From positions 68,758,001 through 68,822,000 of the forward strand of contig NC_043003.1 in assembly GCF_006345805.1 (NCBI RefSeq): 64,000 nt of DNA, written 5' to 3'. Origin of the DNA: Octopus sinensis. Lineage: Eukaryota. This document shows, in pieces, positions 951 to 63,157 of the stretch. The position numbers were made by a program, and so were the translations under genes. How positions within the stretch are numbered: position 1 is the stretch's first letter; every line of letters begins with the position of its first letter. The notes beneath the pieces are model-generated. The model saw only the letters and a program-made list of their open reading frames with translations, did no database searches and had not been told where the DNA came from.

Positions 951-1325
951 GGTAGTTAGGCAAATATGTTTAGGAGTAGTGTTTTCGTTTCGATCTCTGC
1001 ATTGGAACTTCGAAGTGCATTCGGGGGTTTAACTAAAACGGATCTTCAAGGAACACTTTATTGCATCATGTTACATAGAACTAATATCTGGAGTTGGATA
1101 AATTGCGAAACAGAGGAAGGTAAAGTGGAACGAAGAAACAAAGATAGGGGAAAGAGAAAAGTTAATAAAGGACAAAAAAAGAGAAACAGGGATGGGGAAA
1201 ATAGAAAAACAAGGTGAGATTGTAATTTGAGAAAGGAATAAAGAAAGGAAGCAAGGAAAAAGAAAACAGGACAACAATAAGGAGTAAATGAAAAAATAGT
1301 AAACAGTAAGAAATGATGTTCTATA

Positions 1326-1486
1326 TTAAAGAGACGAGGAATTATGTACATTATTTACATTTGACGGATATTTGTCCTTATCTTGTTTGTTAACACAACG
1401 TTTCGGCTGATGCACCCTCCAGCCTCCATCGGGTGTCTTGGGGAAATTTCGAAACTGGGTTCTCATTCCTAAGGTATTTTTCGATG

Positions 1487-1552
<66 letters not shown>

Positions 1553-1853
1553 TCACCGTCTGGAATCGAACTCAGAATCTTGGGGTTAGTAGCCCGCGCT
1601 GTTAACCACCACGGTCATATGGTGTAATGGTTAAGAGGTCGAGTTACTAACCCCGAGAATCCGAGTTCGATTCCAGGCTTGAATAATAATAAAAATAATA
1701 ACATCGAAAAATACCTAAGGAATGAGAACCCAGGTTCAAAACTTTCCCAAGAGACCTGATGAAGGCTAGAGAGTATATCAGCCGAAACGTTGTGTTAACA
1801 ACAAAGAAGATGGTGGAAACTATTTGTCAAATGTAAATAATGTAAATAATATA
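1326..1853. mobile_element. Palindromic non-autonomous element: two head-to-head copies of [tRNA-like head - (AAT)n - hammerhead ribozyme - 3' tail]
   Basis: Arms of about 230-290 bp inverted about CATATG (~1617-1622); each arm has A/B boxes (TGGTGTAATGG, GTTCGATTC), (AAT)n and a CTGATGA..GAAAC motif; 3 more copies in window. Confidence 0.85.
1751..1796 (+). ncRNA. Minimal type I hammerhead ribozyme
   Basis: CTGATGA 1756-1762, extra A, stem II GGCT(A/G)/CAGCC, GAAA 1784-1787, palindromic AACGTT stem III; family consensus stem I GACAC/GTGTT. Confidence 0.75.
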
Positions 1854-2739
1854 AATAAGTAAGAAATGATATTTAAGCAAAAATACGTGAAAATGAATAT
1901 ATTAATTAGCAGCTTGTGAGTGGATTTGGTAGACGGAAACTGAAAGAAGCCCATCGTATATATATATATATCTGAAGCTTCTCACTTTCAACACTCATGA
2001 TTCTCGTACCGACTATTTCTTTTCGAGTTTGTATATCCAAATGCAGGGTGGCACTTTATTAGTATCCGACTTGCTGTCCTTAGTGATAGACAGGAAACGT
2101 AGCCGAGATTCGGGATACTAAAGTTTTTCGACAGTCAACATATTATTTAAAACAGCGCGTGTGTGCGCGAAGGTATGTACTTTAGAGAGAGAACATAGAG
2201 TGAGATTGAAATAAAAAAAGCAAAGAGATAAAAAGCGACAGTGATCTCCAGACAAAATAAACATGTAGTGTATTTCTTTTCCTCTTCATTCTTTCCATTT
2301 TCACATATAACATCTTAAAGCTTCTTTATAGAATCAAATGATTAAATCAATACGGCATACCTTATCTCTACATAGTTCCTTACTTAAATCAACTGCAAAC
2401 GTGTTTGTTTTGTTTCTTATTTTGTTTGTTTTTGTTTAGCTAACATATTAGATTTCTTTATTGGTTCTGTTTATCTAGCTGAAGTGAACAGAGAGCAGAT
2501 TGTATGAATATCTTACCTAAATGTGATAAATTCTCTCTCTATCCAGATTAATATTTATATCTCATTCGTCTTTACACAAAGAACGGTCAACGTAAGGTGA
2601 CGAGGAAGTTTCTAACAGGGACACTTTAGCTACTGAAAATACGAACCAAATCTTCCTTAAATCACAATTTCCTGTCTTATAAGCTGCTTAGAAACTATTA
2701 TTTATACATGGCTCTGTCCTCTCGTCATCATCATCATCA

Positions 2740-10068: not shown

Positions 10069-10136
10069 GTGGCTATACCATACCGGATCTATTTTTAGTA
10101 CTAGAGTCGACCACATAGTGGTTACTCTCTCATATT

Positions 10137-10195
<59 letters not shown>

Positions 10196-10497
10196 CATAA
10201 ATATGAGAGAGTAACCACTATGTGGTCGACTCTAGTACTATATTTATATATATATATATATATATATATGTTTGTGTGTGTGTATCAGTGTTTGTCCCCA
10301 CCTAACATCGCTTCATAACAGATGCTGGTGTGTTTAGGTCCCCGTAACTTAGCGGTTCGGCAAAAGAGACCGAAAGAATAAGTATTAGGCTTACAAAGAA
10401 TAAGTCCTGGGGTCGATTTGATTGACTAAAGGCGGTGCTCTAGCATGGCCGCAGTCAAATCACTGAAACGAATGAAAGAGTAAAAGAGTAAAAGAGT
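9714..10497 (+). mobile_element. SINE family A with nested insertions in its (TA)n
   Basis: GGCGCAGGAGTGGCTCTGTGGTAAG head; (AAAGAGTA)n tail; foreign pieces at 9921-10032 and 10066-10240. Confidence 0.9.
9921..10032 (-). mobile_element. 3' fragment of SINE family C
   Basis: CACGTGATCACGTGACCGACCAG...GCATTGTTTTAGCCTTC matches 16158-16255. Confidence 0.8.
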
Positions 10498-47527: not shown

Positions 47528-48547
47528 TTATATTTATATGTGTGTATGCGCATATGTATATATATGTATATATTATATACACTCACACGAACACGCAGAC
47601 ATACACACACACACACACACATAGATATACATAACAATGAGTGTTTGTGCGTACGTGTGCATGAAAAGTGAAGAACTAAAGTTTACCAATAAGTCGATAT
47701 TCGGTGACAAGAATCACAAGAAAGAAAGAGATATACGAGTAGAGGTATGACGAATGATAATATTGCAAAGAAGACGAATGAAGGCAGAAGCTAGAAAAAT
47801 ATATAGTGTGGCTCAAAAAAAAAACGAGTAAAAGAATAGCTAAAGTGATACAAAAAAGAAAATGTTGACCAAACAAAAATAAAGAGATTAGTTGCTGGAA
47901 ATATATCTACGGTTGTTGTTGTCTGATATATTGAAGTATCAACACGAGAATGAATGTAAATATTAAAAATAGATTGAAAGGCAACAATAATTAAAGCATC
48001 CAACAAGAATACGTTCCCAAATAATATTTACTGCTTCAGTCTTGTAGATATATGAATATTGTTTGCCAATTCCATAATACTAAATATTTCTTATCAGAGT
48101 GTCTTTCACGTGGTAAAGTCAATAACTGCTGTCAAAACCGTAAAATCCGATTATCTATCTGTATGAAAAACAGCTCCATATCTTGGTGGAATTTTGAACA
48201 ATCTAAAAAAATCATAATAAACACTTCAAAGGCAAGATATATCTTACATCTATACTGTTTCCTCTGCTTCAGTGAGAGCTCAGACAACTTTCTTACTAAG
48301 TCGTGGTCTATACTGTTGTACGCTCATGGTCAAAACTTATTATGCAGTCTACTGCTGGAGAACCCCAAGACCCTCTATTTGTTTTACCAATTTCACATAG
48401 TTGATTCCTTATTGGCCACAATTACTGGAACATGTAAGCTGAGTAAGGAAAGATACAACCCTCAAAATATGACTAATTTATAACAGAACTTCAGAGAATT
48501 GAACTTTTATTCTTACGCTTTCAAATGTTAAACGTTGAAAGTGTATA

Positions 48548-48660
48548 TTATTTACATTTGACGGATATTTGTCCTCATCTTGTTTGTCGTTAGCACAACG
48601 TTTCGGCTGATATACCTTCCAGCCTTCATCAGTGACCTGAATAACAACAACAACAACAAC

Positions 48661-48732
<72 letters not shown>

Positions 48733-48951
48733 AATAATAATAACAACAACAACAACTACAACATCGAAAAGTACCTTAGGAATGAAAACCCAGGTTCGAA
48801 ATTTTCCCAAGAAACCTGATGAAAGCTGGAGGGTATATCAGCCGAAACGTTATGTTAACAACAAACATGATGAGGGAAAATATCTGTCGAATGAAATAAT
48901 GTACATAATGTACATAAGACCTCATCCCTTATATATAGAACTGTGTTGAAA
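48548..48951. mobile_element. Hammerhead palindromic element, copy 2
   Basis: Inverted 3' part 48548-48632 joined at CTGATGA to a plus copy truncated just after the tRNA head; HHR cores at 48626-48632(-) and 48816-48822(+). Confidence 0.85.
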
Positions 48952-50018
48952 GTATAGATCCTCAACAAGCAGCAGTACATGATATAATATTCCTTCCAGT
49001 AGTCAGCATGACATTCAAAGGAGAGTGAAACATTCATGTTATATCTTCCACAAATTTTTAGGAATGCAGACGATAAAATACTTTTGACTTTCATGTTTGT
49101 TCATGAAATCAAGGGACTTATTTTATCCTTTTAAACACACCTTACTTATTTGCTGATCATATCAATTACATATTATTCTATCATACATATTATTCTATCA
49201 GGATAGCGACCAAAATCAAACATCAGCCTTAAATAAATGGCGAAATTAACCGCATTATTCAAACAGATAATTGCGATTAAAAGAAACTTCCATCAATGCA
49301 GTGTTGATTACTTGTTTTCTTGTTCAGTATATATCTTTGCACATGGGAACGTACCCCACGAGAGGTTTTTTTTACCGAGCTCCCTTCTTTTTGTTTCCTT
49401 CTCTCTCCCCTCAGTCTCTCCTGTATTTTCATTTCCTACCAAACGAGAGACTATGTCCCAAGCGTTATACCTTTATTTTATGATATTTAATACGTAACTT
49501 TTCTTCTTTCTTTGAGTTCCATCCTAATAATATTAAATTTGAACATCCCTAATACGTTCATGATATTTTGTTGTGGCATTTGCTTTGATATACACACCTA
49601 CAGGTGTGTGCGTATGCGTGTGCGTGCGCATGCGCGCGTAAGTGTATATGTCATGCACATACTCAACCAGATCATTTACAATTTTTGAAACAATATACTG
49701 ACATTTTTTTTATTAAAGACCAAAAGTGCTTGTATGTCAAAACAGTAATAAATGTTTCCTGACGGCTATGTTTCTGCAAGTGATACTGTGATATTTAAAT
49801 ATATAAACAAATATAACATTTCACCGTGGTTATAAACAATAAAAGCCCAGCGGATGAAGCAAGTGAACGAATACAAATGGAAGATAAAACCAAAATGTAA
49901 CACGAAGAACATTAAAAGAAAACTTATCCATTTTTGTGTAGTTAGAGGAGATTTTTTTCTACTGACATTTTTTAAAGTTTAGCCGACATGAGCGTAATGG
50001 TGTGTGCGTATACAGACA

Positions 50019-51207: not shown

Positions 51208-51324
51208 AGTGAAACAATGAAATACAAAATGAGAATTTCCAAAGAATCCATAGAAAAGCATTTTAAACATGGAATCGTTATGCGGGGTTCCACTAGAAAG
51301 AAATAGTAATCCGACACTCCTACA

Positions 51325-51516
51325 TTTAAGAGACGAGGAATTATTTACATTATTTAATTTATTTACATTTGACGGATATTTGTCCTCATCTTTCTTATTG
51401 TTAACACAATCTTTCGGCTGATATACACTCCAGCCTTCATCAGGCGTCTTGGGGAAAATTTCTAATCTGGGTTCTCATTCCTAACGTATTTTTCAATGTT
51501 ATTCCACACAGTGACT

Positions 51517-51574
<58 letters not shown>

Positions 51575-51641
51575 TAATAATAATAATAATAATAATAATA
51601 ACATTGAAAAATACCTTAGGAATGAGAACCCAGGTTCAAAA
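51325..51641. mobile_element. Hammerhead palindromic element, copy 3
   Basis: Minus arm with GACGC-CTGATGA-AGGCTG..CAGCC-GAAA (core 51437-51443); plus arm (AAT)n..GAGAACCCAGGTTC. Confidence 0.85.
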
Positions 51642-51738
51642 TGGAAATGATGAAAATATAGGGATCAAACAGTTCCATAGCTAAAAAATAAATCGATGAA
51701 AACAACTGATATAAACTAACACTGTAGATGTTGATGTC

Positions 51739-52060
51739 GAAGGCGCGTGGCTTAGTGGTTAGGGAATTCGGCTCACAATTCTAAGGTCGTGAGTTCAATT
51801 CCCGGTGACGTGTTGTATCCCTGAGCAAGACACTTTATTTCATGTTGCTCCACTCCACTCAGCTGGCAAAAATGAATTGTACCTGCATTCCAAAGAGGCC
51901 AGCCTTGTCACACTCTCTGTCACGCTGAATCTGCTTGAGAACTACGTTAAGGGTACACGTATCTCTGGATTGCTCAGCTACTTGCACATTAACTTCACAA
52001 GCAAGCTTTTCCGTTGATCGTATCAGCTGGGACACTCGTCGTAACCGACGGAGTGCTCCT
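51739..52060 (+). mobile_element. SINE family D (best preserved copy)
   Basis: GAAGGCGCGTGGCTTAGTGGTTAGG A-box, GAGTTCAATTCC B-box, CCTGAGCAAGACACTT core. Confidence 0.9.
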
Positions 52061-54276: not shown

Positions 54277-54574
54277 CATTACAGATATAGGGTAAAGAAT
54301 TATTAACTTTAATAATTAATAAATATTACCAAGTAGTTTCGGTATGGAAACAGAACCATTATCGGTAGAAACTTTTACAAAAAAATTTTTATATGTAATT
54401 ATAAATATAATTAAGGGTTTAGCAACATGTTTATTCACCACATACCGAAAATTTAGAAGTAGCAGCCAAAGACAGCTAATTCTTTTCACTACAGACATGA
54501 CAGCACAGGTAACAATATTTGTAGCTCACATAGGCGAGTTAAAAATATTACTATATATATATATATATATACAT

Positions 54575-55285
54575 ACAACTAATGTAGGATAAAATTTTTT
54601 CGAAAAAAATTTTAGCAATGGCCAGCATATCAAATAATACTTTTAAAGGTTAAATTTATAAATAACTTACAAAATAAGGGCAAAAGAAAAATTCTAGTGC
54701 CAAATATGCCGAAAAAAAGACAAAATTGTCCATAACCATTATAATTTATGCGTCTCGAAACAAACCGATAGAAATTTTGGCGTTTGACTTTTTCTTTTGC
54801 CCTTATTTTGTAAGTTACTTACAAATTTAACCTTTAAAGGTATATTTTGATATGCTGGCAATTGATAAAATTTTTTTTAGGAAACATTTTATCCAACATT
54901 AGTTGTAAATTTAATAGTGTTCACTTCCGGATTCTCTCAATCTGTGAAAGTTTCTAGATCGAATCACACGTGTCTCGAGATGTGCCGAAGATTTTCTATT
55001 TTGGATATATTTGGGGTACTTAGGTCTGCTCAGGGCCTTAGTGCTTGCTTTTTCCATGGGTATGAGTAAGTATTCCATTTATGTCTTACGTATTTATCGC
55101 TGAAGAGGGGAAGATTCTTATGAATTAACACCGAAATTGGGACCAATACGGTAATAACGGATTTTTTAGAAATTTCTATCGGCATGTTTCGAGACGCATA
55201 AATTATAATGGTTCTTGACAATTTTGTCTTTTTTTCGGCATATTTGGCATTAGAATTTTTCTTTTGCCCTTATTTGGTAAGTTAT
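54575..55285. mobile_element. Non-coding HHR element: 467-bp terminally redundant unit plus inverted copy
   Basis: TTTTTCTTTTGCCCTTATTT.GTAAGTTA at 54789 and 55256; inverted copy at 54575-54777; (TA)n flanks. Confidence 0.75.
55094..55154 (+). ncRNA. Type I hammerhead ribozyme with complete stem III
   Basis: TTATCG-CTGAAGA-GGGG..CACC-GAAA-TTGG GA CCAA-TA^-CGGTAA; 6-bp stem I, ATTGG/CCAAT stem III, AUA site. Confidence 0.8.
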
Positions 55286-56039: not shown

Positions 56040-56209
56040 AATATTAGGAATAAATCCAAATTTACAGGGAAAAAATCAGATTTAGGATTAAATCGATTTT
56101 ATAGTAAAATATTATAAAATATTATTCGAGACAAAACCACTATTTTGCAAAACAAACAAGGAAAGACTTAATCAATACATAAAATTTTAATAAATAGTCA
56201 AAAAAACCG

Positions 56210-56252
56210 CCACTACAATCGTTTCTTGTCTTGATCGACAATCTTCAGGTGG
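56210..56252 (-). ncRNA. Minimal type I hammerhead ribozyme
   Basis: CCAC-CTGAAGA-TTGTC GATCAA GACAA-GAAAC GATT GTA^-GTGG. Confidence 0.75.
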
Positions 56253-56308
56253 ACTTCCAATATTCAGTGTCAATTATGAAGTTCATAATTGACACTGAAT
56301 TATTGGAA

Positions 56309-56353
56309 GTCACCTGAAGATTGTCGATCAAGACAAGAAACGATTGTAGTGGC
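56309..56353 (+). ncRNA. Minimal type I hammerhead ribozyme
   Basis: GTCAC-CTGAAGA-TTGTC GATCAA GACAA-GAAAC GATT GTA^-GTGGC. Confidence 0.75.
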
Positions 56354-56441
56354 GGTTTTTTTGACTATTTATTAAAATTTTATGTATTGATTAAGTCTTT
56401 CCTTGTTTGTTTTGCAAAATAGTGGTTTTGTCTCGAATAAT

Positions 56442-56472
<31 letters not shown>

Positions 56473-56916
56473 TCATATATAAGCAGAGCAAATTAAAACA
56501 ATGCTCCTCGCATGGAACCTGACAGGAGCGTTGCCAAACACTTATTGCACAGGCCCTAAAAAGCATTGGTTTTCATCGAACCTTGGCTCAAATTGCGAGC
56601 ATAACGAATGACCTCATTCGCTCATATACCATAATACATCCGCACATGAAATTATTACAGAAAACATTTAAAGAGGGGGTGGAGGGACAAAAGGATGGAC
56701 AAGAAAAAAAAACTAATGACTCCATAGAATCCGAGAGGGGGGTGTCAGGGTAAAGCTGAAAGAGAGAGCAGTAAAACAAATACGAGTGTGAGTCCAATAA
56801 CAATGCCAAAGAATGAAATGCAAAATGGGAATTTCCAAAGAAATATCCATAGGAATCCATTTTAAAAATCGAATTGTTACGCGGGGATCCACTAGAAAAA
56901 AATAGTAATCAAATAG

Positions 56917-57313
56917 ATCTATATTTAATAGATGAGGAATTATGTACATTGTTTACATTTGACGGATATTTGTTCTCATCTTTGTTGTTGACAGAACGTT
57001 TCGGCTGATATACCCTCCAGCCTTCATCAAATGTCTTGGGGAAATTTCGAACCTGGGTTCTCAATCCTAAGGTATTTTTCGATGTTGTTGTTGTTATTAT
57101 TATTATTATTATTATCATTATTATTTTTATTATCATTATTATTTTTATTATCATTATTATCATTGTTGTTGTTGTTGTTGTTGTTGTTATTATTCAGGTC
57201 GCTGCCTGGAATCGAAGTTGGAATCTTGGGGTTAGTGACCCCCGCTCTTAACCACTACGAAACGTTTTGTTAACAACAGGGCAAATATCCGTTGAATGTA
57301 AATAATGTAAATA
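56917..57313 (-). mobile_element. Hammerhead palindromic element, copy 4 (with tRNA head)
   Basis: Minus: GTAGTGGTTAAGAGCG..CTTCGATTCCAGGC head, (AAT)n, TTGATGA..GAAACG; short inverted 3' piece at 57259-57313. Confidence 0.85.
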
Positions 57314-58527
57314 TTGATCATTAAAGTATCACTGTGAGAAAGAAAAACCTACTATATAGTGAAATACGAATGTGCTTTCGCGTGTTTTCTGTTTAAACAA
57401 TAAGTTTAAACAATATTTCAGTCGATTCTTTAGACACCCTTCGAAAAAATTTGATTGAGGGTTAAAGGTGGAAATAGAGAGTGGAAGACGAGATGCCTAC
57501 AGTAAAGGAAAGTCGTATAGAATGGGTTTCGAGCAAAGATCATGTTGAAAGAAATAATAAGAGAAATATTTTTAATAAAAAATATTAAACTGTTCAAGGT
57601 CTTAATATCGTTTTCGATTCAGCCATTTTTGGGTTTATACACACACACATATACATATATATACATGTATTTATATGTGTATGTGTCTGTGTATGTGTAT
57701 GTATATGTACATTTACGCACACATATATGTGTATCTATATATATATATATATACGTATATATATGTATATATACATATATATATATATACATTTTATACA
57801 TACATATATATATATACATATGTGTGTGGGGTCGAGTGTGTGGGGGCTGTACATATATATATGAAGAGAAAGAAATATGTAGATATATAAACAGATAGAC
57901 AAATAAGTAGACAGATAGAAAGAGGGAGAAGGATAAAACTCACTTGTATATCATTGTATGAAAGATAAATATAAGAATGATATTATTTGCAACCCAAGTT
58001 AATAAAATATATTGAGAAAATACACAAGATGATAAAAAATAAGAATACAGATGAATATAATTCATAAGCGAATCTAGTGTTTCAAAGTATATTTAGCATT
58101 TTTTTCTTTTCGTAGAAAGAATCGGAGATTATTAATTTAAAACCTTTGATCTGTTGTCTTGTTGATTCACAAAAAAATCTAAATCAAAGCAAAGAAATTT
58201 TCTGTTGCATACACAAAAGGCGCTTGGAAGGCAATATTTCCTGTTTAAAAAGACCTCCAAATCTTCATGCATGTCTTTCATATCTGTTCAACCGTGTCTA
58301 AAGCATGAATAGCTTAAAAGACAATAGATGAACCATTTTGGCGCCAGCTTCATTGATAGTAATGTTCCCTACAATCGTTTCCAATATGGCAACTCGTACG
58401 ACGCTACCTACGTGCCCGTCTCCAACACCACTATGAAACCAGCAATGCTATAGCCATCGACAGCGTTGCTACTGTGGCATTTACTATCATCACTATTTTA
58501 TCTTGTCTCTCTTAATCGAAATTATTA

Positions 58528-61097: not shown

Positions 61098-61654
61098 CGC
61101 CATGATTGACCGCTAGCTACTAAAGCCTTCTTTTTTTATTCTCTCTGTTTATTTTCTCGTGTTCCTTTCAGTTGAGGAGCGTAGACTAGAAACGTAAAAT
61201 ACTTTCTCACCTTCCCCTGCGTTAAACTAACACACCTGTTTGTTATTTACACACCTGTCTTCGTCTTTTGTAGTTTGTAAATTCTAACTATATATATATA
61301 GGCAACAAGTGAAACATTTTTTTTGCCCATGACACTACATGGACCCTAAGTAAGGCATGTGTGAAATTTGAATGCAATTGGTTGTGTAGTTCTGAAGTTT
61401 TAGGGATTTAAATAAAAAAAAGAAAATTTTTATTCAAAATATTGAAGCTAAGGATAAAATTTAAAATAAAATATTTAGATTTAGAAATAGGAGGGTAGTG
61501 TAGTTCGCTTGAAGCATTCTGTATTGTTTGTAATCAATAAAGTTTTGAATGGTATAACAATGCACTATAATATAGACAATGGGCTATATACCTGTAGTAA
61601 TTTTGTCATCCATAGTCTGATATGATATTTCGGAATAATATTCCTTCTTCAGGT

Positions 61655-62150
61655 CGCTTCCAAGGTATATTGAAAACCAACGGGTATTCTGGATCCATCG
61701 CAATTCAGATTAAGTACCCAAGACGACCAAAGAAGAGAAGGGCTAGACATACAACTAGCCCCTCCGGCCCCTCTCTGAGAGGACACCTCACTAAGAAACG
61801 AACAAGGGACAACATTCAATGTACCCTAACAAACTGTCCCGTCCGCGACACATATTTGTGTCAACGGGTTAATGTTGTGTATAGAATACAATGTAACAAA
61901 TGCAAGAAGTTCTATGTGGGTAGCACAACAAGACCGTTATACGTCCGCATCAAAGAACATCTGAACACGAGAGCCTCCTCCTTCAGAAAATATCTAGACA
62001 GATTCCGAAATACGACAAAAACATAACAGTCACAATTGAGGCCAATAGAAGAAATTTGGGTAATTTAAGAATTAAGGAAGCTATACTCATACACACTCTA
62101 GGACCCCAAATTAACAACAGGCTAGAGGTTGGTAATCAGTATATTATTTA
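61655..62150 (+). pseudogene. Penelope GIY-YIG endonuclease (frameshifted)
   Basis: C..CP...C..NVVYRIQCNKCKKFYVGSTTRPLYVRIKEH, then in another frame LRIKEAILIHTLGPQINNR. Confidence 0.9.
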
Positions 62151-62446
62151 GATACGTCTGGATGTGTGTAGGTTCATTTTTGATAATATTCTGATCTGTA
62201 GCTTATAACAAAAAAAACAATAGAAGAGAAGAGAAAAAAGGAAACTGCACGTATAATACGTAACTTAGGAGCAGCGCTACGGATGTACCAGCACACACGA
62301 GATTGAGACATGCTCGACCTCACACACTTCTCATGAGGAATTCCGGAAGGAGCATCGTGAGACCACTGCTGAGACGCTTCCAAAAAAATGAAAATAAAAA
62401 GGAAAAGCCGTTGGAAAACCGATTATAGCAGCGATTCCATCTAAGA

Positions 62447-62483
62447 ATATCTGAAGAAGGAATATTATTCTGAAATATCATAT
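62447..62483 (+). ncRNA. Minimal type I hammerhead in Penelope pLTR
   Basis: ATAT-CTGAAGA-A-GGAAT ATT ATTC(T/C)-GAAA-TATC^-ATAT; the inverted copy at 61617-61652 has the perfect GGAAT/ATTCC stem. Confidence 0.75.
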
Positions 62484-63157
62484 CAGACTATGGATGACTA
62501 AATTACAACAGGTATGTAGCCCATTGTCTGTATTATAGTGCATTGTTATACCATTCAAATCTTTTTAGATTTAGAAAATATTAGCTTTTATTAAAACTAA
62601 AACTTTTATTATAAGTTATTACTTCTATTAGTTATTGCTTGTTATTTCTATTAAAAATTTTAAATAACTCAATTAAAATATTTTTTGCATGTTAAAAAAT
62701 TCATTTTTTTAATTAGTAATTAATAATTAAAAAATTGAAAATAGGTTACAAAAATAATTGTAGTACATAATTAGTTACTACAATAAATAGGATAATACAA
62801 AATTTAGTCATATATTACAGTAAAATCTACTTATAACAAGAAATTCACAGTAAAAGTTGCTTGAGTTATTGCCAACGCTTCACATTTTAGTATTGACCCA
62901 ATGCCTATTAATTTATATAATGGATTTGCCTACCATATATACTGTTCTACTTTGCATAAAATTTTAGTTATATTGGTATTTGTGGCTGTCATTTTTTTTA
63001 GTATTCTAGTGTGTCAGTATTTTAACAAAATGATGGCAACTTTTTTAATTATAATATTACTTTGTAAATTAAAATCAAATAATTTTTAATATTTAAATTT
63101 TATCCATAGCTGCAATATTTTAGGAGGGTAGGTTGCAATATTTTAAGTAAAAATTTT

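What the first reader, a model, noticed from the sequence alone, without database searches (positions are those of the whole stretch)
1326..1853. tRNA-promoter plus hammerhead ribozyme element that always occurs as a palindrome: candidate Penelope-mobilised 'ribozyme SINE'
Seen: a non-coding unit made of a tRNA-like head (A-box TGGYGTARTGG, anticodon-like arm GGG-CTACTAA-CCC, B-box GTTCGATTC), (AAT)n, a minimal type I hammerhead (consensus GACAC-CTGATGA-A-GGCTG..CAGCC-GAAA-CGTT^GTGTT) and an AATGTAAATAATGTA 3' end. All four copies (1326-1853, 48548-48951, 51325-51641, 56917-57313) have a head-to-head inverted partial copy, with different breakpoints. Established: minimal HHRs with palindromic stem III and inverted 5' pLTRs are hallmarks of Penelope-like elements, while tRNA heads define LINE-dependent SINEs. 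Inference: a Pol III-transcribed, self-cleaving non-autonomous element that uses Penelope RT/GIY-YIG rather than a LINE. I cannot tell from here whether it is already catalogued.
Basis: partly seen in the sequence, partly recalled or inferred. Interest (0 to 1): 0.88.

Follow-up and report, generated by a model that had tools for sequence, protein, structure and literature searches.

The report
tRNA-headed Penelope parasite inserting in pairs
This short, protein-free jumping element joins a tRNA-derived front end to a hammerhead-ribozyme-shaped end and mostly lands as two head-to-head copies inside one target duplication, the footprint of Penelope retrotransposons, so it likely borrows Penelope enzymes instead of the LINE enzymes that such elements normally use.

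Summary
The element is real and genome-wide (rough estimate 15,000-20,000 copies): a tRNA-derived head, an (AAT)n spacer, a 152-nt body holding a minimal type I hammerhead, and an optional 33-nt tail. It is not always palindromic: 61 of 85 sampled loci are inverted. In 43 of 50 two-armed loci exactly one arm has the tail, and one 10-16 bp target duplication often encloses the pair. This is the known Penelope insertion footprint. A true Penelope remnant in the same window shows it too; three other repeats rarely do (0/47, 2/137, 5/116). Best reading: a tRNA-headed non-autonomous Penelope-type element whose arms are likely two cDNAs primed from staggered nicks. The ribozyme cut does not define the copies, so the integrated RNA was uncut. 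Not shown: the partner Penelope (searched, not found), Pol III transcription, cleavage. Schistosome Sm/Sj-alpha is a precedent for a Pol III promoter plus hammerhead; I found no paper on a tRNA-headed element with this footprint (Repbase/Dfam not searchable). The scan noted this family before on other DNA. New variant of a known kind.

The parts
1305..1317 (.). copy 1, left target-site duplication (13 bp, exact)
1318..1488 (-). copy 1, left arm: body with hammerhead motif (two core changes) and the 33-nt tail at the outer end
1489..1547 (-). copy 1, left arm: (AAT)n spacer
1548..1612 (-). copy 1, left arm: tRNA-derived head, 5'-truncated in the A box
1613..1680 (+). copy 1, right arm: tRNA-derived head with A and B boxes
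1681..1699 (+). copy 1, right arm: short (AAT)n spacer
1700..1857 (+). copy 1, right arm: body ending at the short 3' end (no tail)
1751..1796 (+). minimal type I hammerhead motif of the right arm (core intact; one mismatch each in stems I and II; predicted cut after 1791)
1858..1870 (.). copy 1, right target-site duplication
48534..48545 (.). copy 2, left target-site duplication (12 bp, one mismatch with the right one)
48546..48632 (-). copy 2, left arm: body positions 57-145, short end
48633..48944 (+). copy 2, right arm: last few head letters, (AAT/AAC)n spacer, body and tail
48945..48956 (.). copy 2, right target-site duplication
51318..51642 (.). copy 3: minus arm (body and tail, 51318-51500) and plus arm (spacer, body 1-43); no target duplication found
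56915..57321 (.). copy 4: minus arm (tail, body, spacer, head from position 11) and plus arm (body 84-157, short end); no target duplication found; shares left flank with copy 3

Best explanation
[quoted passage not shown] Shown: the anatomy, two preferred 3' ends 33 nt apart, one tail per pair, one 10-16 bp duplication around the pair, copies that run through the ribozyme cut site. Inferred: the endonuclease nicks both target strands about 12 bp apart; each nick primes reverse transcription inside an uncut RNA, one at the long (tail) start and one at the short start; the two cDNAs grow towards each other and are joined at variable points, often through the small self-complementary tip at the 5' end of the head; single-armed copies are events in which one arm was lost or never made. 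Palindromic copies would then carry two outward-facing promoters and seed new rounds. The hammerhead is inherited from the Penelope terminal repeat and kept in the source lineage, but its cut is not needed for insertion.
For: One tail per pair in 43 of 50 two-armed loci, 28 of 32 in the two sets not selected for a tail. 3' ends are bimodal: 57 of 135 arms end at body 145-164 and 68 at 180-185. Direct repeats of 8 or more letters at the ends in 21 of 55 loci against 1.7% in shuffled pairings; 23 of 43 one-tail pairs pass a strict anchored test, 10-16 bp, median 13. The same footprint is seen in the Penelope remnant at window 61488-62563 and in its family, with ends near 145 and 190 of the query. 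Control repeats are head-to-head in 0 of 47, 2 of 137 and 5 of 116 loci against 6 of 12 clusters for this element. The footprint is described for Penelope elements (PMC3846280, PMC8557442, passages). An Anolis Penelope protein cuts and extends both strands, starts at two internal sites that define the tail, and uses uncut RNA (PMC11167929, parts 1-2). Either arm can be the longer one and both keep their own 3' end. Arms of one locus differ at the non-CpG subfamily site N7 in 6 of 30 loci, more than the one or so that decay of a single template would give (my arithmetic). Head: 50 of 73 letters with a genomic tRNA-Arg(TCT), z 8.1, best of 15 distinct tRNAs; no run of four T on the sense strand. 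The only common non-CpG variants inside the ribozyme lie at N7 and in loop II, the free positions (two sites only).
Against: No Penelope family sharing the 3' end was found in any Penelope locus fetched (blastn; nhmmer over 253 and 90 loci); the searches score only the top 150 candidates, so the list of families is incomplete. Arms of one locus agree at subfamily sites more than chance (24 of 30, p 0.004; 33 of 39, p 0.0006) and are slightly closer than arms of different loci (8.1% against 9.5%), which also fits copying from one template. 24 of 85 loci are single-armed, and among the loci lacking a second body arm only 2 showed a candidate duplication right at the 5' boundary. RNA-seq reads of a related organism showed no strand bias and no pile-up of ends, and 75% ran on into unlike sequence, so only embedding in longer transcripts is seen. 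The head no longer folds as a tRNA by Rfam or ARAGORN. Core positions decay as fast as the loop in inserted copies (6.2% against 7.1%).
Confidence: 0.7

Rival explanations
1. Penelope enzymes are used, but the second arm is a fold-back or self-primed copy of one template (the reading given for rotifer Penelope palindromes, self-priming on an antisense template), with later deletions.
For: A fixed self-complementary tip and an inverted 5' leader of up to about 25 nt precede many complete heads; 8 of 60 leaders are 22-25 nt and two loci are full palindromes across the head. Subfamily concordance within loci is above chance and 11 rare variants are shared, 3.8% against a null mean of 1.4% (null maximum 3.9%). 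PMC3846280 (passages) argues for self-priming.
Against: 6 of 30 loci are discordant at N7. The truncated arm can be either the tailed or the untailed one, and a tailed arm often holds sequence missing from the other arm. Both loop polarities occur with the tail on a given side. Both outer ends coincide with the two preferred 3' ends and abut the duplication.
Confidence: 0.25
2. The tRNA head is a passenger: the unit is a solo Penelope terminal repeat that once captured a tRNA fragment and is copied from read-through Pol II transcripts, so it is not a SINE in the promoter sense.
For: Penelope terminal repeats can carry unrelated DNA in trans (PMC3846280, passages). RNA reads are unstranded here and mostly run into host sequence. 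No Pol III data.
Against: Full-length arms begin at or just before tRNA position 1 and extend past 25 nt upstream in only 6 of 60; A and B boxes sit at tRNA spacing; no four-T run inside; shared flanks next to the element were rare, 7 pairs among 170 flanks, unlike read-through transduction.
Confidence: 0.15
3. It is a retrozyme like Sm-alpha: multimeric transcripts self-cleave to monomers or circles that are reverse transcribed.
For: Type I hammerhead in a short non-coding repeat; Sm/Sj-alpha pair a Pol III promoter with a hammerhead (PMC6765202, passages); animal retrozymes are linked to Penelope elements (10.64898/2026.07.22.740005, part 1 of 5).
Against: No head-to-tail array of full units in 85 loci; unit ends are not at the cut site; only 4 of 34 internal 5' breakpoints lie within six letters after it; the ribozyme is of the minimal, not the canonical, type.
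Confidence: 0.05
4. It is an ordinary LINE-dependent SINE whose inversions come from L1-style twin priming or later rearrangement.
For: tRNA head and target duplications are SINE features; the genome is rich in SINEs.
Against: Both arms hold the same 3' region, unlike L1 twin priming (recalled: the two parts do not overlap); there is no poly(A) or simple-repeat 3' end; other repeats of the genome almost never show the layout; no LINE protein match next to the 85 loci with the one LINE protein tried.
Confidence: 0.04

Closest known systems
Insertion units of endonuclease-bearing Penelope-like elements (Adineta Pen2a, PMC3846280; overview PMC8557442; Anolis Poseidon PAc, PMC11167929)
   Same: Inverted 5'-truncated second copy, 30-40 nt tail on one end only, target duplication around the whole unit, palindrome at the junction, hammerhead upstream of two internal start sites.
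   Different: No ORF; about 300 nt; a tRNA-derived head with A and B boxes replaces the coding part and the Pol II-type promoter.
Minimal hammerheads of metazoan Penelope terminal repeats (PMC4209133)
   Same: Short stem I (5 bp), longer stem II (6 bp), a single unpaired base between positions 9 and 10.1, two-base palindromic stem III; that paper also notes pairs on opposite strands 100-700 bp apart.
   Different: There tied to Penelope ORFs or unexplained solo copies; in the two parts read, no tRNA head is mentioned.
Schistosome Sm-alpha and Sj-alpha SINE-like elements (seen through the review PMC6765202; primary papers not read)
   Same: Pol III-type promoter followed by a hammerhead in a short non-coding retroposon.
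   Different: Those are often tandem and cleave multimers to monomers; this one is dispersed, head-to-head, has a minimal ribozyme, and is integrated uncut with a one-sided tail.
Non-autonomous Penelope derivatives: Chlamys/MRC1 (PMC8557442) and animal non-LTR retrozymes (PMC7229834; 10.64898/2026.07.22.740005)
   Same: Non-coding elements thought to use Penelope enzymes through a shared 3' end.
   Different: Head-to-tail multimers without a tRNA head (no 'tRNA' in the bioRxiv text); here no arrays.
tRNA-derived SINEs, including the octopus OK, OR1 and OR2 families (titles and one passage only, PMC4758252; composition rule in PMC5786205)
   Same: tRNA head, short, high copy number, target duplications.
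   Different: Those take their 3' end from a LINE; whether this family equals one of the 1994 families could not be tested (paper and sequences not held).
Helenus and Ajax (PMC10886601, abstract start and passages)
   Same: Small-RNA-derived sequence inside a non-autonomous element of a class other than LINE-dependent SINEs.
   Different: They are LTR-type elements; no Penelope link.

Membership tests
Penelope-like element insertion unit | hammerhead motif near the 3' end (minimal type I) | tested here: met
   Core and stems in the majority sequence; 55 of 124 arms intact; stems I and II in the predicted fold; Rfam gives no hit
Penelope-like element insertion unit | 30-40 nt tail on one end only; two 3' start sites | tested here: met
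   43 of 50 two-armed loci; bimodal ends
Penelope-like element insertion unit | inverted 5'-truncated copy inside one target duplication | tested here: met
   61 of 85 inverted; duplications in 21 of 55 and 23 of 43
Penelope-like element (autonomous) | ORF for reverse transcriptase and GIY-YIG endonuclease | tested here: not met
   About 300 nt; no Penelope protein match at the element in 85 loci
non-autonomous Penelope derivative | 3' end shared with an autonomous Penelope family | tested here: inconclusive
   No match in the Penelope loci fetched; the families of the genome could not be listed in full
tRNA-derived SINE | 5' head derived from a tRNA, with A and B boxes | tested here: met
   50 of 73 letters with a genomic tRNA-Arg(TCT), z 8.1, best of 15 distinct tRNAs, not all isotypes sampled
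tRNA-derived SINE | transcription by RNA polymerase III | not testable with these tools
   Only fragmented, apparently unstranded RNA-seq was available; no four-T run inside
tRNA-derived SINE | 3' end from a LINE, ending in poly(A) or a simple repeat | tested here: not met
   Ends are two fixed internal sites with no repeat tail; a LINE partner was probed with one LINE protein only
non-LTR retrozyme / Sm-alpha type | head-to-tail arrays with unit ends set by the ribozyme cut | tested here: not met
   No arrays of full units in 85 loci; copies run through the cut
non-LTR retrozyme / Sm-alpha type | self-cleavage and circular RNA | not testable with these tools
   Needs bench work; no pile-up of read ends, which such libraries would hardly show

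The most novel reading that the evidence does not exclude
A true SINE class carried by Penelope enzymes, in which the ribozyme's palindromic stem III works mainly as an RNA dimerisation signal: it loads two RNAs onto a dimeric Penelope protein so that both target strands are primed, which would explain the head-to-head insertions of Penelope elements in general; each palindromic insertion then rebuilds two outward-facing Pol III promoters.
Probability: 0.2. Interest if true: 0.85.

Novelty: new variant of a known kind. Interest (0 to 1): 0.65.

Why it matters
SINEs are described as depending on LINEs (PMC5786205, abstract). A tRNA-headed element with the Penelope footprint would extend SINE-style parasitism to a third retroelement class, and repeat libraries would misfile it. 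It also reduces the Penelope cis-signal to under 200 nt and supplies thousands of natural insertions with subfamily markers, which makes an open question testable: how Penelope's inverted, one-tailed insertions arise (called undefined in PMC8557442). The paired arms would also form long RNA hairpins in host transcripts (inference, not tested).

Tried and rejected
Partner search: GIY-YIG family and five Penelope protein queries in the own genome plus fetched stretches gave several Penelope families, those with a recognisable 3' end carrying their own different hammerhead-like motif; none matched the body (blastn; nhmmer; best stray hit E 0.007, antisense, AT-rich). A search for non-family flanks upstream of the ribozyme was not run, so that route is open. 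A tail-anchored pattern (135 hits, 100 listed) showed no common continuation beyond a few A/T letters. Rfam on the window was swamped by microsatellite-driven miRNA models. My first structural hammerhead scan returned nothing and was rewritten. Sequencing runs: no RNA holder listed (no evidence either way); 20 rows in 13 studies and six organism labels hold half or more of 22 words, but I laid only X1, X15, X22, X23; the planned cross-species lay gave no result. More A>G and T>C sites in the RNA runs than in the contig runs were not taken as editing: other organism, no matched DNA. A tail-to-body stem of 9 bp is predicted but weak (z -1.6). A monomer ribozyme fold is only moderately above shuffles (z -1.9), and the dimer fold was not the active form, so folding says nothing on activity. 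Long-read palindrome artefact rejected: arms differ by 8% and carry duplications. One recalled Pfam accession was not in the library. The primary Sm-alpha paper was not held.

Full report
Setting. The window lies in G000, a 2.72-Gb animal genome. The taxon is most likely an octopus; this is inferred from recalled repeat features and from earlier scan notes, and no call of mine tested it.

Observation. The four loci are there, each with two head-to-head arms. The majority of up to 30 top genomic hits gives a 76-nt head, an (AAT/AAC)n spacer and a 152-nt body, with an optional 33-nt tail. The body holds a minimal type I hammerhead: 5-bp stem I, one unpaired base before a 6-bp stem II, and a two-base palindromic stem III, the form described for Penelope terminal repeats (PMC4209133, parts 1-2 of 4). 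Rfam and ARAGORN do not call it or the head. None of the five window arms that span the ribozyme matches the family form fully; 55 of 124 such arms in all samples keep core and stems, and core decay (6.2%) is like loop decay (7.1%). Copy 1 sits in an exact 13-bp duplication and copy 2 in a 12-bp one; copies 3 and 4 have none and share about 100 nt of flank, so they may descend from one event.

Abundance. In 80 evenly spaced 10-kb stretches (799,800 bases) the search gave 8 clusters, which I read as 5 clear insertions and one doubtful; 4 of the 5 are inverted. That scales to roughly 17,000-20,000 loci with a wide margin (about 5,000-45,000; my arithmetic). The 135 hits of a tail pattern with a three-letter anchor point to several thousand exact tails, which agrees. 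Arms are 91-94% identical to the majority, so the burst is not recent. Runs under six organism labels hold half or more of the sampled words; I laid only two labels.

Architecture. Three searches with different parts of the unit gave 90 loci; I dropped 3 self-hits and 2 duplicates, leaving 85. These are top-scoring hits, not a random sample. 61 are inverted and 24 single-armed, so 'always' fails; insertions into the spacer can split an arm, so the inverted share may be somewhat higher. 50 have two body arms; 43 of these have exactly one tail, 3 have two and 4 none. 3' ends cluster at body 145-164 and 180-185. Repeats of 8 or more letters join the two outer ends in 21 of 55 loci against 1.7% of shuffled pairings; a strict test finds 10-16 bp duplications in 23 of 43 one-tail pairs, with the tail abutting the duplication. 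The pair is therefore one insertion event. Three other repeats of the window are head-to-head in 0 of 47, 2 of 137 and 5 of 116 loci, against 6 of 12 clusters (4 of them the window's own) for this body. A true Penelope remnant at 61488-62563 (GIY-YIG, E 9e-6) has its own hammerhead-like motif, inverted arms, one tail and a 14-bp duplication, and its family shows the same two ends.

Head. 28 of 29 loci found with the head alone carry the body, so it is not a chance neighbour. Among 15 distinct tRNAs from the genome (30 loci; not all isotypes) it is closest to tRNA-Arg(TCT), 50 of 73 letters, z 8.1. The sense strand has no run of four T. Of 60 heads complete at the 5' end, 44 are preceded by three or more letters of an inverted copy of the head around a fixed two-base loop; 8 leaders are 22-25 nt, 2 are 33-39 nt, and 4 (two loci) span the whole head. 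This fits a start up to about 25 nt upstream inside a palindromic source copy, or short fold-back synthesis; the data do not decide.

Mechanism. A purified Anolis Penelope protein cuts and extends both target strands, starts at two internal RNA sites that bound the tail, is predicted to be a dimer, and uses uncut RNA; its ribozyme cleaves only with protein (PMC11167929, parts 1-2 of 4). The element's features map onto this one for one. Copies run through the cut site, and only 4 of 34 internal 5' breakpoints lie just after it. On one template or two: arms of a locus agree at subfamily sites above chance (24 of 30 and 33 of 39) and are a little closer than arms of different loci (8.1% against 9.5%), but 6 of 30 disagree at the non-CpG site N7. 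I favour two RNAs from the same active pool (about 0.55), with fold-back from one template as the main rival (PMC3846280, passages); gene conversion could blur either. The two common non-CpG variants in the ribozyme fall on free positions, a weak sign that the source lineage kept the motif. RNA-seq of organism D shows the element in both orientations, 75% of reads running into unlike sequence, with no pile-up of ends: embedding in longer transcripts, nothing on Pol III or cleavage.

Partner. Several Penelope families are present, some with intact 775-781 aa frames. None shares the body. The searches score only the top 150 candidates, so the partner may be rare, old or unsampled. Penelope use therefore rests on the footprint, not on a shared sequence.

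Known and new. The footprint is known (PMC3846280, PMC8557442, passages), as are non-autonomous Penelope derivatives (PMC8557442, passages; 10.64898/2026.07.22.740005, part 1 of 5 and passages; PMC7229834, passages) and a Pol III promoter with a hammerhead (Sm/Sj-alpha, through PMC6765202, passages; primary papers not read). I found no description of a tRNA-headed element with the one-tailed inverted footprint in the listings of nine literature searches or in term look-ups in PMC13282606, PMC5786205, PMC4758252 and PMC10886601 (passages). No supplements were read; Repbase, Dfam, SINEBase, the 1994 octopus SINE paper and most subscription journals were out of reach, so the sequence may be catalogued as a plain SINE. 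Earlier agents of this scan reached a similar reading on other DNA; I had stated mine first and took from them the arm-concordance test and the rotifer paper.

Verdict. Real; works like a Penelope insertion unit; has a SINE's head but fails the LINE-tail criterion and the retrozyme criteria. New variant of a known kind; interest 0.65.

Noticed in passing
window 61488-62563: Penelope remnant (GIY-YIG end, own hammerhead-like motif at 61652 minus and 62451 plus) with inverted arms, one tail and a 14-bp duplication (61474-61487, 62564-62577); a different family, used as comparator.
   Followed up: yes
window 51212-51311 and 56808-56910: Copies 3 and 4 share about 100 nt of left flank at 85%; one weak further match in L145. 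Local duplication or a rare repeat.
   Followed up: partly
window 56109-56454, 54574-54907, 10101-10235: Other near-perfect or decayed palindromes unrelated to this family (97% and 77% for the first two); possibly other fold-back or Penelope-type insertions.
   Followed up: no
window 51738-51960: A different tRNA-headed SINE right after copy 3; 47 loci in 864 kb, never head-to-head; used as control.
   Followed up: partly
L061-L068: Young Penelope family with intact 780-781 aa frames, an upstream overlapping frame of up to 479 aa, and a hammerhead-like 3' motif with non-standard core positions 3 and 8.
   Followed up: partly
L213-L242: Abundant Penelope-related family whose hammerhead-like 3' motif has an extra helix inside stem II.
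   Followed up: no
L294, L297, L375: A Penelope family whose 3' region has a short motif resembling part of this element's tail; no wider similarity, probably chance.
   Followed up: partly
L025, L021, L093: Other repeats have inserted into the element, mostly into the (AAT)n spacer, splitting arms by 400-600 nt.
   Followed up: partly
listing; Letters right after the tail end are strongly biased to T then A, and duplications start with A or T in 23 of 23; target preference or microhomology with the template.
   Followed up: partly
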